Of a DNA stretch of 41,429 nt, positions 29,880 through 32,334 are shown one piece after another. This DNA is from Candidatus Caldarchaeum sp. (GTDB taxonomy: Archaea > Thermoproteota > Nitrososphaeria_A > Caldarchaeales > Caldarchaeaceae). The notes under the pieces were generated by a model, which was given only the letters and a program-made list of their open reading frames with translations, was not told the DNA's origin and ran no database searches. Location: assembly GCA_038844785.1 (NCBI GenBank), contig JAWBRA010000015.1, positions 1 through 41,429 of the forward strand, given 5' to 3'. The translations under genes were made by a program, and so were the position numbers. Every line of letters begins with the position of its first letter. Position 1 is the stretch's first letter.

Positions 29880-31165
29880 GGATAGATTCGTGTTGGGGTC
29901 CTTGGAAACATAGCCGCCGACCTTATGTTCTTGAGCCCTAGAAGCCACTGAACCAGCCTTTCAACCCCTAGGCCGAAACCGCAGTGGGGAACGGTTCCAA
30001 ACTTCCTTAAGTCAAGATACCATTTATAATCTTCCGGGTTCAGCCCCTCCTCCTTTATACGGTTGAGCAGCTCGTTGTAGTCGTGGATTCTCTGACCACC
30101 TCCAACTATCTCGCCGTATCCAGACGGGGCCAGCAGGTCGGCTGAGAGGGTCAAAGCTGGGTTGGAGGGGTCTGGCTTATGGTAGAATGCCTTGGCCTGC
30201 CTTGGGAAATGGGTGAGGAAGAAAGGCTTTTCAAACTCCATGGTCAAAACCCTTTCTTCGTCGGCTCCCAAGTCACTACCCCACGGCACAGACACCCCCT
30301 TTCTCTCCAGGATGTCTAGGGCTTCCGAGTAACGTATCCTCGGGTATGGATGCTCAAGCGTCGAAAGGTCTATTTTACGGTCTAGGACCCTCATCTCGCC
30401 TGCCGAAATCCGGACAGCCTCTGTCGAAGCCTCGCCCACCAACCTCTCCACCACCTTCATCAACTCCTCGAGCCCGGCGTGAGCCATTTCAGCCTCTACG
30501 TGCCAAAACTCAGTCAAATGCCTACGGGTCTTGCTCCTCTCAGCCCTGAAGCTGGGCTGTACGCTGTAAACTTTCTCCAACGCATAGATGGCGGCCTCTT
30601 GGTAGAACTGTACGCTCTGGGTCAGGTAGACTTTTTTCCCGAAGTAGTCTACTTGGAAGAGCGTGGCCCCGCCTTCGACGGCCGCGGTTATGAAAGTGGG
30701 GCAGTGAACCTCAACAAACCCCTCTTTCTCAAGCCACTCCCTCAAGCATTTCACAAGCTTCGCCCTAAACCTCAGGATGGCGGCTGCCTTTGGGCTTCTT
30801 ATCGCCAGATGTCTGTTAAGGCTTAGGAACTTCGGTCCAACTCCTTTTTTGACGGGGAACTCTTCGACAGAGGGTGAAATAACTTCTATGTCTGTCCCGC
30901 TTACCTCTACGCCTCCGGGAGCCCTTTCATCATGCCTTACAAGACCAACAACCTTGAGAGCCGATTCTCTGCCCGCGGACGCGGCCTTTACAAACCCCTG
31001 CTCGGAAAGGCTAGACGCCCTGACTGTAACCTGTACAACCCCCGTCGAGTCCCTTAAATCGAGGAACAGTAGCTTTCCATGCAGCCTTTTAGACCTCAGC
31101 CAGCCTAACAGCTCAACCTGGGTGCCGTCCGGCAGGCCTCCGAGCTCTGCGACGTGAACCCTCAA
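29876..31165 (-). CDS. asnS: Asparaginyl-tRNA synthetase
   Basis: OB-fold N-terminus, EGGATLF, YLTQS.QFY.E, FRAERSKTRRHLTEFWHVEAE, WYLDLRKFG.VPH.GFGLGVER. Confidence 0.9.
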   Translation of the reverse strand: MRVHVAELGGLPDGTQVELLGWLRSKRLHGKLLFLDLRDSTGVVQVTVRASSLSEQGFVKAASAGRESALKVVGLVRHDERAPGGVEVSGTDIEVISPSVEEFPVKKGVGPKFLSLNRHLAIRSPKAAAILRFRAKLVKCLREWLEKEGFVEVHCPTFITAAVEGGATLFQVDYFGKKVYLTQSVQFYQEAAIYALEKVYSVQPSFRAERSKTRRHLTEFWHVEAEMAHAGLEELMKVVERLVGEASTEAVRISAGEMRVLDRKIDLSTLEHPYPRIRYSEALDILERKGVSVPWGSDLGADEERVLTMEFEKPFFLTHFPRQAKAFYHKPDPSNPALTLSADLLAPSGYGEIVGGGQRIHDYNELLNRIKEEGLNPEDYKWYLDLRKFGTVPHCGFGLGVERLVQWLLGLKNIRSAAMFPRTPTRIYP

Positions 31166-31199
31166 CTCACGTATCCGTCATTAGACCCATATATAGAGG

Positions 31200-31523
31200 C
31201 TACATTATGGGGGTTCCGGCTTTAACTTCTTTTTCAGGTATTACCGGAACCACATTGTCCTCGTCCTCGACTGCTGTCAAAAGCATGGCTTCAGATAACT
31301 CGCCTCTTACCTTTTTTGCCTCGAGGTTTGTAACAAAGACGAAAGACCTTCCTACGAAATGCTCCGGTGGGTAGAGATGGGCTAGACCTGTTATGACCTG
31401 TTTGCTAACATCTCCGAACCCCACCTGCAGCCTTAGAAGCCTTTCCGAGCCTTTGACTCTCTCAGCCTTCAGGACTTTGCCAACCCTCAGCTCAACCCGT
31501 TTAAACTCGGACAACGTTATCAT
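31200..31523 (-). CDS. tRNA-binding OB-fold protein (Trbp111/CsaA/MetRS C-terminal-like)
   Basis: F..VELRVGKV..AE, LL.LQV.FG...KQVITG and NLEAKKVRG..SEAM motifs. Confidence 0.88.
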   Translation of the reverse strand: MITLSEFKRVELRVGKVLKAERVKGSERLLRLQVGFGDVSKQVITGLAHLYPPEHFVGRSFVFVTNLEAKKVRGELSEAMLLTAVEDEDNVVPVIPEKEVKAGTPIM

Positions 31524-31630
31524 GGCCGAAAGACTTGGAAAGCTCCTAAAAATAGTTATGCACAAGGATTTTCCATAATTTTTTCAGAAAATTTTTTATC
31601 CACCCAATAGCTACTATTTTCGAGGAACAG

Positions 31631-31741
31631 ATGGCGAAGAAGAAGGCCGCTAAGAAGAAGGCGGCGAAAAAGGCTAAAAAAGCCAAAAAACCCGCCGCAC
31701 CACCGGCGCCGGCTGAGGCTGGGGCTCAGCCATCAGCTTAA
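31631..31741 (+). CDS. 36-aa Lys/Ala/Pro-rich histone H1-like microprotein
   Basis: MAKKKAAKKKAAKKAKKAKKPAAPPAPAEAGAQPSA*; T-rich TATA-like element at ~31592-31599 and GAGGA upstream; mixed synonymous codons; fills an intergenic gap. Confidence 0.75.
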   Translation: MAKKKAAKKKAAKKAKKAKKPAAPPAPAEAGAQPSA

Positions 31742-31764
31742 GTCTCCAAAAACCCCTCTATATT

Positions 31765-32334
31765 TTATTCTTCTTCAACCCATTCCCAGAAACGGCGTTT
31801 TCTCGGCTGGACAGGCACGGGCTTGGCTGTGATAGATTCCACGAGCGATGCGGATAAAAGTGAGAATGATATCGGCAGGATGTATATGAAGGCAAAGTCG
31901 AGCGGGCCATCTAACAGGATGGCTTGTGCCACCTTTGAAAGAAAAACCTCCCAGCTGACTGCTCCGGGAAGCCTAGGATGAACATATATGGACAGCCCCA
32001 GAACAAGCAGGTAGACGATGGCGGGGGTGAGCAACGCAGGAGGTAGAGCGCTTTTGGCTTTGCGCGACAGCAAGCCTATGACCGCTCCCCCTAAACACCA
32101 AGCTACGAGGGGTCCCAGCCCAAGTCTTAAGCCCTCCCCCCATGGAGCAACTATAGTCTGTCCCCCGAGAGCCGAGGAAAGAGGCGTTAGGAGTGTGGAG
32201 AGAGAAGAAAGTATTACGGCTAGAACCGATACTTGAAGGGTGGCCGGTGGAAGACTGCTATGTAAAGGGGTGGTCATCAACAGCCCTGCGAGGATGAGGG
32301 AGGAGATTCCGGCTAGGCACGCCAGGACTTTCAT
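31765..32334 (-). CDS. Hypothetical membrane protein
   Basis: About 5 hydrophobic segments; no recognised motif. Confidence 0.65.
   Translation of the reverse strand: MKVLACLAGISSLILAGLLMTTPLHSSLPPATLQVSVLAVILSSLSTLLTPLSSALGGQTIVAPWGEGLRLGLGPLVAWCLGGAVIGLLSRKAKSALPPALLTPAIVYLLVLGLSIYVHPRLPGAVSWEVFLSKVAQAILLDGPLDFAFIYILPISFSLLSASLVESITAKPVPVQPRKRRFWEWVEEE

What the first reader, a model, noticed from the sequence alone, without database searches (positions are those of the whole stretch)
31631..31741. 36-aa linker-histone (H1 tail)-like microprotein in an archaeon
Seen: MAKKKAAKKKAAKKAKKAKKPAAPPAPAEAGAQPSA has 12 Lys in the first 20 residues in AKK repeats, followed by a Pro/Ala tail, in its own intergenic slot with promoter-like signals. 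Known: K/A/P-rich repeats condense DNA in eukaryotic H1 tails and bacterial Hc1/AlgP-type proteins; archaea are not generally credited with an H1. Inferred: a candidate novel archaeal chromatin or RNA-binding protein below normal gene-calling thresholds.
Basis: partly seen in the sequence, partly recalled or inferred. Interest (0 to 1): 0.75.

Follow-up and report, generated by a model that had tools for sequence, protein, structure and literature searches.

The report
Conserved unannotated lysine-rich microprotein gene, Caldarchaeales
A tiny, previously unannotated gene for a 36-residue, almost pure lysine/alanine/proline protein is real and conserved in a group of hot-spring archaea, and it probably coats DNA or RNA by charge, much like the tail of linker histone H1, although nothing has yet been tested at the bench.

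Summary
The 36-codon ORF at 31631-31741 (+) is there exactly as described (12 Lys in the first 20 residues). It is a genuine gene. An intact ORF of the same build sits in the same slot in all 31 genomes of two Caldarchaeales families that I inspected. The build is M-[A/P]-K/R-rich block, P/A linker, one or more Glu, then a short small-residue tip, 34-87 aa in all. The slot is divergent from a Trbp111-type tRNA-binding gene and convergent with a membrane-protein gene.

Substitutions fall mainly at third codon positions (79/58/298) and are mostly synonymous (235 versus 121 codons). A near-consensus archaeal BRE/TATA lies 30-40 nt upstream of the ATG in every genome. One hot-spring metatranscriptome shows sense-strand reads.

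None of 8 members tested is in a 15-billion-protein collection. A profile search of 1.84 billion representatives returned only one family member. Pfam, NCBIfam, PHROGs and PDB gave nothing.

It is not a member of the H1 family, because it has no globular domain and no SPKK motifs. In composition it does resemble tail-only H1-like proteins. My odds on function: DNA/chromatin polycation about 0.4, RNA/tRNA binder about 0.3. This is a new lineage-restricted microprotein family of moderate-to-high interest.

The parts
31585..31599 (+). Archaeal BRE/TATA-like promoter element (cagaaaa + ttttttat) of the micro-gene
   Evidence: Sequence. The motif GAAAATTTTTTAT starts at 31587, and only 8 sites of this pattern class occur in the genome. 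A motif of the form GAAA(A)-TTTTT(T)-A(T/A) ends 30-40 nt before the ATG in 21 of 25 genomes by strict regex. The other 4 carry one- or two-base variants at the same place. It is also present, read by eye from the printed upstream sequence, in 5 of 5 further genomes.
31622..31625 (+). GAGG, a Shine-Dalgarno-like purine motif in a short leader (inferred)
   Evidence: Sequence. Purine-rich GAGG, GAAG or GGTGA motifs occur 5-12 nt before the ATG in most orthologous loci, read by eye. The transcription start site is not mapped. A start about 31620 is inferred from TATA spacing.
31631..31741 (+). Micro-gene of 36 codons plus TAA: K/A-rich basic block (residues 2-20), P/A linker (21-28), conserved Glu29, small-residue tip (30-36)
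   Evidence: Intact syntenic orthologues (34-87 aa) were found in all 31 f1/f4 genomes inspected. Differences by codon position are 79/58/298, with 235 synonymous and 121 non-synonymous codons over 20 pairs. Sense-strand RNA reads reach depth 2.9-4.9 at 31661-31780 in run X3. AlphaFold2 predicts a low-confidence helix at residues 2-19 and a disordered tail.
31761..31769 (+). Weak T-rich stretch after the stop codon, a possible oligo-T termination signal that overlaps the end of the convergent gene
   Evidence: Sequence. A T tract (T5 or longer, or T3-N-T3) lies within 60 nt of the stop in 21 of 25 orthologous loci. It is absent by that rule here and in the two closest relatives. In X3, plus-strand reads trail on to about 32020, so termination here looks leaky.
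31200..31523 (-). Divergent neighbour: Trbp111/MetRS-beta-like tRNA-binding OB-fold protein (107 aa from ATG 31523; the ORF listing starts it at TTG 31565)
   Evidence: PF01588, E 1.4e-23. NCBIfam metG_C_term and tRNA-binding models match but fall below their cut-offs. This gene is the neighbour of the micro-gene in every f1/f4 locus.
31765..32334 (-). Convergent neighbour: 189-aa hydrophobic protein with no family match
   Evidence: No Pfam or NCBIfam family matched. It is conserved downstream of the micro-gene in f1 and f4.

Best explanation
Shown: 31631-31741 is a separately promoted, transcribed protein-coding gene under purifying selection. It belongs to a previously unannotated microprotein family found in two families of Caldarchaeales ('Aigarchaeota'). 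The product is intrinsically disordered. It has an N-terminal polycationic K/A block (net +9 to +23 in the 25 members tabulated; helix-prone but low confidence), a P/A linker, and a short conserved acidic, small-residue C-terminal tip.

Inferred: it acts as a free polycation that binds nucleic acid by charge. My leading specific reading is that it works like a tail-only linker histone. In that reading the basic block lies along DNA, neutralises phosphate charge and helps to compact or stabilise the histone-plus-Alba chromatin of these thermophiles. The acidic tip would either temper binding or recruit a partner.

My odds: real gene 0.95; nucleic-acid- or polyanion-binding polycation about 0.7; DNA/chromatin specifically about 0.4.
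For: Reality of the gene:
- An intact ATG-to-stop ORF of the same architecture occupies the same slot in all 12 of the first loci.
- The same holds in 12 of 12 f1/f4 genomes fetched only through the neighbouring tRNA-binding gene. In total 31 genomes were inspected, while the flanking proteins diverge to 46-55% (tRNA_bind) and about 29% (membrane protein) identity.
- Differences by codon position are 79/58/298, and 235 codons differ synonymously against 121 non-synonymously, over 20 within-clade pairs. In seven non-overlapping pairs, added up by me from the same table, the figures are 37/31/117 and 84 versus 56. One pair shows 20 synonymous to 1 non-synonymous.
- The BRE/TATA is conserved at a fixed distance.
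- RNA reads lie in the sense orientation. The orientation rule was checked on the two minus-strand neighbours.

Polycation and H1-tail likeness:
- The window protein is 33% K, 39% A and 14% P, with no aromatic, Cys or His residue. The 25 tabulated members carry 12-25 K+R, and longer members found later carry more.
- Length varies from 34 to 87 aa by gain and loss of repeat units. This is typical of low-complexity charge modules and not of folded proteins or core ribosomal proteins.
- Kinetoplastid H1 is a single K/A/P-rich domain without a globular domain and still compacts chromatin (PMC3486875, passages). A Toxoplasma H1-like protein is similar (PMC9769792, passages).

Chromatin context:
- The genome has one tail-less histone of about 79 aa and three Alba genes.
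- Cren7 is absent from 0 of 76 class genomes.
- The published Caldiarchaeum genome paper lists only two Alba and one histone as chromatin proteins (PMC3082918, passage).
Against: - There is no binding, localisation or abundance data of any kind.
- RNA depth over the gene (about 3-5) was only a few-fold above the neighbours (about 1) and below part of the membrane gene (about 10). This rests on 28 reads in a roughly 5% subsample of one run. Two other runs of the same study gave 0 reads on the whole stretch. High, histone-like expression is therefore not shown.
- Families f2 and f3 of the same order have the same histone but lack the gene at this slot. None of 7 genomes has the full type, and one has a 24-aa K/S-rich ORF. 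The gene is therefore not needed for histone chromatin in this order.
- The conserved acidic tip has no counterpart in H1 tails.
- The gene's constant neighbours are translation genes (a Trbp111-like gene and AsnRS), which favours the RNA rival.
- Compositional likeness is not homology. BLASTP, Pfam, PDB and Atlas searches all gave nothing.
Confidence: 0.4

Rival explanations
1. RNA/tRNA-binding cofactor. The K-rich peptide acts in trans like the lysine-rich middle domain of yeast Arc1p or AIMP1. It would add non-specific contacts to the tRNA body beside the Trbp111-type OB-fold protein encoded divergently from the same 105-bp intergenic region, next to AsnRS. More generally, it could be an RNA or ribosome chaperone of thermophiles.
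For: - The micro-gene shares a bidirectional promoter region with the tRNA_bind gene in every f1/f4 locus inspected, and AsnRS lies next to it.
- Arc1p needs both its lysine-rich middle domain and its Trbp-like OB fold to bind tRNA. [quoted passage not shown]
- A Toxoplasma tail-only H1-like protein also associates with ribosomal proteins (PMC9769792, abstract passage).
Against: - The whole block AsnRS / tRNA_bind / micro / membrane protein / ligase is syntenic in f1 and f4, so adjacency is not specific.
- Families f2 and f3 keep the tRNA_bind gene without the micro-gene.
- No K-rich ORF lies beside Trbp111 homologues in 16 loci outside the order.
- No fused form (K-rich block plus OB fold) was found.
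- The rapid length change from 34 to 87 aa is unlike core ribosomal proteins.
- Archaeal multi-synthetase complexes described so far lack auxiliary proteins (PMC4394549, passage).
Confidence: 0.3
2. Binder of another polyanion or surface, for example polyphosphate granules (as proposed for the H1-like AlgP of Pseudomonas) or acidic lipids. It could also be a lysine-rich substrate or decoy of the class-wide ubiquitin-like modifier system.
For: - The charge pattern alone fits any polyanion.
- AlgP, an H1-like K/A/P protein, acts on polyP granule spacing (PMC9239181, title and start of abstract only).
- E2-like UQ_con genes occur in 75 of 76 genomes of the class, so a ubiquitin-like system is available.
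Against: - There is no specific link. UQ_con is present in all four families, including f2 and f3, which lack the micro-gene, so there is no co-occurrence signal.
- No polyP or membrane genes are linked to the locus.
Confidence: 0.1
3. The peptide itself is unimportant. Under this reading the unit is a regulatory ORF or RNA. One form is Lys/Pro-run ribosome stalling. Another is a convergent antisense transcript that reads into the 3' half of the membrane-protein gene and modulates it.
For: Plus-strand reads continue past the stop codon to about 32020, antisense to the membrane gene. The ORF contains Lys runs and a PP motif. In the window the T tract after the stop is weak.
Against: - There is no downstream cistron on the same strand.
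- The conserved C-terminal P/A-Glu tip and the excess of synonymous change across the whole ORF show selection on the peptide sequence.
- Most orthologous loci do have a T tract after the stop (21 of 25).
Confidence: 0.05
4. Not a gene: a chance ORF in an A/G-rich intergenic spacer.
For: Other frames over the same DNA are also stop-free for 25-80 codons, because the composition avoids stop codons. An open frame alone therefore proves little. HMMER-type searches handle such low-complexity sequence poorly.
Against: The ATG, the stop codon, the frame and the architecture are kept in all 31 f1/f4 genomes inspected. All length changes are in frame. Third-position and synonymous bias is strong. The promoter is conserved. 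Sense RNA reads are present.
Confidence: 0.03

Closest known systems
Single-domain (tail-only) linker histones: kinetoplastid H1 and Toxoplasma TgH1-like
   Same: Both are free-standing, have no globular domain and are made almost only of Lys, Ala and Pro. Both are predicted to be disordered. Those proteins compact or organise chromatin (PMC3486875 and PMC9769792, passages).
   Different: This is an archaeal protein of 34-87 aa. The 36-aa window protein is, from my recollection, well below the size of the kinetoplastid proteins. It has a conserved acidic, small-residue C-terminal tip and no S/TPKK-type motif. Homology cannot be shown and chromatin association is untested.
Eukaryotic linker histone H1/H5 (Pfam PF00538 Linker_histone plus K-rich C-terminal domain)
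   Same: The composition of the basic block resembles the H1 C-terminal domain.
   Different: It lacks the winged-helix globular domain (no Pfam hit; 36 aa against a 74-position domain). It has no tripartite structure.
Bacterial H1-like lysine-rich proteins (Chlamydia Hc1/Hc2, Pseudomonas AlgP)
   Same: These are also K/A/P-rich low-complexity polycations of prokaryotes. Their names and properties are partly recalled. For AlgP I saw only the listing.
   Different: No Pfam match to any such family at E<=1. This protein is much shorter, comes from a different domain of life and has the acidic tip.
Lysine-rich middle domain of yeast Arc1p / AIMP1, next to a Trbp111-like OB fold
   Same: A lysine-rich, RNA-binding, low-complexity segment is functionally paired with a Trbp-type OB fold (PMC11286949, passages). 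Here a K-rich peptide gene sits head-to-head with a Trbp111-type gene.
   Different: Here the two parts are separate, divergently transcribed genes. No fused form was found (weak evidence). The pairing is not seen outside this order.
Small lysine-rich candidate nucleoid protein of Methanomassiliicoccales (74 aa; Hocher et al. 2022)
   Same: It is a small, basic, lysine-rich archaeal protein proposed as a nucleoid-associated protein on proteomic grounds (PMC7613761, passage).
   Different: It comes from a different lineage and has a different length. I did not compare the sequences. The profile search over 1.84 billion representatives returned no such protein.

Membership tests
Linker histone H1/H5 (PF00538) | Winged-helix globular domain of about 74 residues | tested here: not met
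   Pfam scan at E<=1 gave 0 families, and the protein has only 36 residues. PF00538 was not found in the genome either, but the control rang nowhere, so that search says little.
Linker histone H1/H5 (PF00538) | K/A/P-rich basic C-terminal-domain-like composition | tested here: met
   12 K, 14 A and 5 P of 36 residues. The 25 tabulated members carry 12-25 K+R and net charge +9 to +23.
Linker histone H1/H5 (PF00538) | S/TPKK-type DNA-binding and phosphorylation motifs (feature recalled from general knowledge) | tested here: not met
   The window protein contains no SPKK or TPKK (direct reading). I saw none in the 25 sequences printed.
Tail-only H1-like proteins (kinetoplastids, Toxoplasma) | Single K/A/P-rich domain without a globular domain | tested here: met
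   Composition and absence of any domain match. The definition is taken from PMC3486875 passages.
Tail-only H1-like proteins (kinetoplastids, Toxoplasma) | Association with chromatin and an effect on compaction | not testable with these tools
   Needs nucleoid fractionation, ChIP or in-vitro compaction assays.
Bacterial Hc1/Hc2 H1-like nucleoproteins (Pfam families; accessions recalled) | Match to the family profile | tested here: not met
   No Pfam family matched at E<=1. HMMER's bias filters may hide weak low-complexity matches.
Arc1p/AIMP1-type tRNA-binding accessory module | Lysine-rich segment in the same polypeptide as the Trbp/EMAPII OB fold | tested here: not met
   These are separate divergent genes. 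The tRNA_bind proteins of the order are 107-111 aa with no K-rich extension. The 'longer' profile search found no fused form (weak evidence).
Arc1p/AIMP1-type tRNA-binding accessory module | Non-specific RNA/tRNA binding that raises the tRNA affinity of the OB fold | not testable with these tools
   The complex predictor was not available, and biochemistry is required.
Archaeal histone (PF00808) / Alba (PF01918) / Cren7 (PF11520) | Match to the fold family | tested here: not met
   No Pfam match for the microprotein. Those families are encoded elsewhere (histone C3:1346-1531; three Alba) or are absent (Cren7 in 0 of 76 genomes).
Archaeal ribosomal proteins | Match to a ribosomal-protein family, and sequence and length conservation typical of core ribosomal proteins | tested here: not met
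   No Pfam or NCBIfam match. Length ranges from 34 to 87 aa within one order. Physical presence in ribosomes was not tested.

The most novel reading that the evidence does not exclude
Caldarchaeales carry a free-standing, tail-only linker-histone analogue. In this reading it is a 34-87-residue K/A/P polycation with an acidic recruiting tip. It binds linker or wrapped DNA alongside a single tail-less histone and Alba and tunes compaction or thermal stability of the chromatin. That would make it the first H1-like chromatin component described for histone-bearing archaea, effectively a 'histone tail in trans'. Notes from this scan on oligolysine genes in DPANN archaea are unchecked. If they hold, free lysine-repeat polycations would be a recurrent and overlooked layer of archaeal chromatin.
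Probability: 0.3. Interest if true: 0.8.

Novelty: new variant of a known kind. Interest (0 to 1): 0.6.

Why it matters
Archaeal chromatin is described in terms of folded proteins such as histones, Alba, Cren7/Sul7 and MC1. Disordered H1-tail-like polycations are not part of that picture. Genes this small and this low in complexity are dropped by gene callers and by profile searches.

Here is a clean, well-supported case. The gene is conserved across two families, is under purifying selection, has a textbook promoter and is absent from protein databases. If it binds DNA, it gives a directly testable archaeal counterpart of the H1 tail and of histone tails acting in trans. A 36-residue peptide can simply be synthesised and tested. 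If it binds tRNA beside Trbp111, it would be a split, prokaryotic version of the Arc1p/AIMP1 arrangement.

Either way, it shows that lineage-specific microproteins with probable nucleic-acid roles are being missed in archaeal genomes assembled from metagenomes.

Tried and rejected
- Family and structure libraries gave nothing for the microprotein: Pfam (E<=1), NCBIfam and PHROGs. The PDB profile search gave only E>7 chance hits.
- ESM Atlas: the window sequence is not held. The stored homologue P0001 gave best scores of 0.84, below the level that means anything.
- BLASTP between the window protein and its C20 paralogue gave no alignment, because of low complexity.
- AlphaFold2 with 21 sequences gave mean pLDDT 60.5, with a helix at residues 2-19 at about 66-68 and the rest disordered. 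I therefore ran no fold search.
- The complex predictor (microprotein with the Trbp111-like dimer) was not available and nothing was folded. Protein-protein contact with Trbp111 or histone stays open.
- RNA runs: no RNA holder was listed. Of the four runs laid, X1 and X2 gave 0 reads on the stretch, which is no test. X4 gave only a 40-nt piece of a foreign K/A/P-rich contig.
- The promoter motif is too rare in the genome (8 sites) to define a regulon. Two of the other sites I checked are not next to a recognisable RNA gene, and only SRP RNA was found, more than 1 kb away.
- Co-occurrence tests were uninformative. Histone (75 of 76), UQ_con E2 (75 of 76) and Cren7 (0 of 76) are uniform across the class, so none tracks the presence or absence of the micro-gene.
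- No K-rich ORF lies beside Trbp111 homologues in 16 loci outside the order.
- Fused forms: none at E<=0.01 among 8000 longer candidates (weak evidence).
- Context of the paralogue: no Pfam or PHROGs family in 4-6 neighbouring ORFs, and no relative of one neighbour in viral contigs.
- Literature: searches turned up no description of this family. This is not an exhaustive check, and subscription journals are not covered.
- Earlier scan notes near this place and by sequence: nothing.

Full report
**1. The observation**

Searches confirm an ATG..TAA ORF at 31631-31741 on the plus strand. It encodes MAKKKAAKKKAAKKAKKAKKPAAPPAPAEAGAQPSA. The first 20 residues hold 12 lysines. The whole protein has 12 K, 14 A, 5 P and 1 E, with no D and no aromatic, Cys or His residue, and net charge +11.

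The ORF fills a 240-bp slot between two genes.
- On one side is a divergent gene for a Trbp111/MetRS-beta-like tRNA-binding OB-fold protein (PF01588, E 1.4e-23; NCBIfam models match but fall below cut-off). Its likely start is ATG 31523.
- On the other side is a convergent 189-aa hydrophobic protein with no family match.
- Further out lie asparaginyl-tRNA synthetase (NF003037, 442.8 bits against a cut-off of 414) and an ATP-dependent DNA ligase.

Near-identical loci elsewhere carry record titles 'Candidatus Caldarchaeum sp.'. The organism is therefore a member of the Caldarchaeales ('Aigarchaeota'). The genome is 1.74 Mb with 50% GC.

**2. Is it a gene?**

Yes, on four independent grounds.

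*Synteny and intactness*
- A search of 41 relatives with the peptide gave 13 genomes with matches at E<=10.
- In all 12 loci returned, an ATG-to-stop ORF of 34-48 aa with the same build lies between the tRNA_bind and membrane-protein genes.
- Profiles miss many members. The first profile (A1) hit 20 of 76 genomes of the class. The second (A3) hit 23 of 401 genomes of the phylum: f1 15 of 16, f4 6 of 25, f2 0 of 15, f3 0 of 3. Elsewhere it gave one weak hit inside a 511-aa frame.
- I therefore also fetched loci through the neighbouring tRNA_bind gene, regardless of any match to the peptide. In 12 of 12 f1/f4 genomes the micro-ORF is there.
- Three of these are same-genus genomes and several are f4 genomes with no sequence hit.
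- Altogether I inspected 31 f1/f4 genomes, covering all four f1 genera and all five f4 genera. All 31 have an intact ORF of 34-87 aa.
- In families f2 and f3, none of 7 loci has the full type. In one (G018) the 115-140-nt slot between the same two neighbours is simply empty. One (G041) has a 24-aa K/S-rich ORF at the equivalent place without the tail and without the promoter motif.

*Substitution pattern*
- Over 20 within-clade pairs, differences by codon position are 79/58/298, and 235 codons differ synonymously against 121 non-synonymously.
- In seven non-overlapping pairs, added up by me from the same table, the figures are 37/31/117 and 84 versus 56.
- One pair (G039/G037) shows 20 synonymous changes and 1 non-synonymous change.
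- All length differences are in frame.
- Openness alone is not informative, because the other frames are also stop-free for 25-80 codons.

*Promoter*
- GAAAATTTTTTAT at 31587-31599, preceded by 'ca', is a near-consensus BRE/TATA ending 31 nt before the ATG.
- The same element ends 30-40 nt before the ATG in 21 of 25 genomes by a strict pattern.
- The other four have one- or two-base variants at the same place.
- Five further genomes also have it, read by eye.
- Only 8 sites of this pattern class exist in the whole genome.
- A purine-rich SD-like motif (GAGG at 31622-25) follows.
- In genus g10 an upstream in-frame ATG lies 24-25 nt from the TATA, which may give a leaderless, five-residue-longer product there.
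- A T tract follows the stop in 21 of 25 loci, but it is weak in the window itself.

*Transcription*
- No RNA holder was listed, but three raw-read hot-spring metatranscriptomes of the same study were offered.
- About 3-5% of each run was read. X1 and X2 gave nothing on the stretch, which is no test.
- X3 gave 28 reads on 31101-32300.
- Over 31661-31780 the depth is 2.9-4.9 with the first mate on the minus strand.
- The minus-strand neighbours (AsnRS end, tRNA_bind) have their reads with the first mate on the plus strand at depth about 1.
- The library therefore behaves as a reverse-stranded one, and the micro-gene reads are sense.
- The first 30 nt of the ORF show no depth, and the plus-strand signal trails on to about 32020. 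This is weak but positive evidence, and it does not show very high expression.

**3. Is it known?**

- None of 8 exact member sequences is in the 15-billion-protein collection.
- A profile search of the 5.8-billion-cluster set returned one protein, P0001. A profile search of 1.84 billion representatives, with no word index, returned the same single protein.
- P0001 is the G017 member called with a spurious 22-residue upstream extension.
- Pfam, NCBIfam, PHROGs and PDB gave nothing.
- The Atlas gave nothing usable.
- No fused longer form was found (weak evidence).
- The Caldiarchaeum genome paper lists only two Alba and one histone as chromatin proteins (PMC3082918, passage).
- My literature searches found no description of such a protein in this group.
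- The family is therefore unannotated and, within what I could search, undescribed.

**4. Anatomy of the family**

Every member has the following parts.
- It starts M-[A/P/G], followed by a K/R-rich block broken by A, T, G, S or P.
- The 25 tabulated members carry 12-25 K+R, and the longer members found later carry more.
- Next comes a P/A-rich neutral linker.
- Then come one to five Glu and never Asp.
- The last part is a 3-8-residue tip of small or aliphatic residues.
- The basic block expands and contracts by repeat units (34 to 87 aa), whereas the 'P-A-P-A-E' region and tip are the steadiest part.
- AlphaFold2 gives a low-confidence helix for residues 2-19 (pLDDT about 66-68) and no structure for the tail.
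- This is a disordered polycation with a small anionic end.

**5. What it most likely does**

The charge pattern makes binding to a polyanion by far the most likely activity (inference, about 0.7).

*DNA/chromatin, about 0.4*
- The composition matches what defines tail-only linker histones. [quoted passage not shown]
- A similar Toxoplasma protein is chromatin-associated (PMC9769792, passages).
- The host has a single, essentially tail-less histone of about 79 aa and three Alba genes. It has no Cren7 (0 of 76 in the class). A small free polycation could therefore supply the charge neutralisation that tails and H1 give in eukaryotes.
- Against this reading, f2 and f3 have the same histone without this gene. 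There is no abundance evidence. The acidic tip has no H1 counterpart.

*RNA/tRNA, about 0.3*
- The gene is always head-to-head with a Trbp111-type gene next to AsnRS.
- In yeast Arc1p the lysine-rich middle domain next to the same kind of OB fold is required for tRNA binding and binds RNA non-specifically (PMC11286949, passages).
- Against this reading, the whole five-gene block is syntenic in f1 and f4, so adjacency is not specific.
- The tRNA_bind gene persists without the micro-gene in f2 and f3.
- No such pairing occurs in 16 loci outside the order.

*Other rivals*
- Other polyanions, or a link to the ubiquitin-like system, about 0.1. The E2-like gene is present in 75 of 76 genomes and so does not track the micro-gene.
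- A purely regulatory ORF or antisense RNA, about 0.05.
- Not a gene, about 0.03.

The complex predictor was unavailable. Contact between the tip and Trbp111 or histone therefore remains open.

**6. Comparison and membership**

- It is not a member of the H1/H5 family. It has no globular domain, no Pfam match and no S/TPKK motif.
- It is not a member of any bacterial H1-like Pfam family, the histone fold, Alba, Cren7 or any ribosomal-protein family.
- It may work like a tail-only H1, or like the Arc1p middle domain acting in trans.
- Two earlier notes of this scan (e1-2518789, e1-3200424) report conserved oligolysine micro-genes and 56-78-residue H1-tail-like repeat proteins in DPANN archaea. 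I did not check them, and I take them only as a hint that free lysine-repeat proteins recur in archaea.

**7. Verdict**

It is a real, novel, sub-threshold gene for a nucleic-acid-binder-like polycation, but 'H1' holds only by analogy, and DNA versus RNA is undecided. I rate it a new variant of a known kind (prokaryotic or protist H1-tail-like polycations). It is lineage-restricted and directly testable with a synthetic peptide. Interest 0.6.

Noticed in passing
G000 contig C20:28290-28433 (+) = L084:2791-2934: A second, 47-aa copy of the same kind of microprotein. It has an M-A-R-K-rich block, a P/A linker and a tip almost identical to the window's (…EAGAQPTA against …EAGAQPSA), with its own TATA-like element. 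DNA alignment shows similarity along the CDS, while BLASTP sees nothing. It was found in no other of the 76 class genomes with this query. It sits among ORFs with no Pfam or PHROGs family, which may be a variable or mobile region. The profile searches had missed it.
   Followed up: partly
window 31741-32140: In run X3, plus-strand RNA continues past the micro-gene's stop to about 32020, antisense to the 3' half of the convergent membrane gene. A separate pile of reads at 32021-32140 (depth about 8, first mate on minus) carries A>G at 32073 in 8 of 8 reads from 3 start positions. This is probably a strain variant or duplicates.
   Followed up: no
window 31523-31565 (-): the ORF listing starts the tRNA-binding gene at TTG 31565. 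All orthologues align from the internal ATG at 31523 (MITLSEF…, 107 aa). That leaves a 105-bp bidirectional promoter region shared with the micro-gene.
   Followed up: partly
L093:1956-2030 (+) (G041, family f2): A 24-aa K/S-rich ORF lies divergent from the tRNA_bind gene at the equivalent position. It lacks the P/A-Glu tail and the conserved BRE/TATA. It could be a shrunken or decaying orthologue in a family that otherwise lacks the gene.
   Followed up: no
run X4, 350-nt RNA contig laid on window 31633-31672: A hot-spring metatranscriptome contig from another organism carries a different K/A/P-rich coding stretch (loose end reads K-A-A-A-K-P-A-A-A-P). Similar lysine/alanine/proline genes are therefore transcribed by other members of such communities.
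   Followed up: no
window 31765-32334 (-) and orthologues (for example L077:2161-2673): A conserved 170-189-aa hydrophobic protein with no Pfam or NCBIfam family is always convergent with the micro-gene in f1 and f4. A shared '…YTPLLTPLSS…'-like segment is visible in several orthologues.
   Followed up: no
class-wide (76 genomes): An E2-like UQ_con gene (PF00179) is present in 75 of 76 genomes, with none of the 14 control genomes ringing. The eukaryote-type ubiquitin-like system first reported for Caldiarchaeum therefore appears to be universal in this class. One histone per genome occurs in 75 of 76, and Cren7 in 0 of 76.
   Followed up: partly
loci of genus g10 (for example L020:471-632, L021:1441-1602): An in-frame ATG five codons upstream (MVC[KY]S-MPKKK…) lies 24-25 nt after the TATA box. 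In this genus the gene may therefore be translated from a leaderless mRNA with a slightly longer N-terminus.
   Followed up: no
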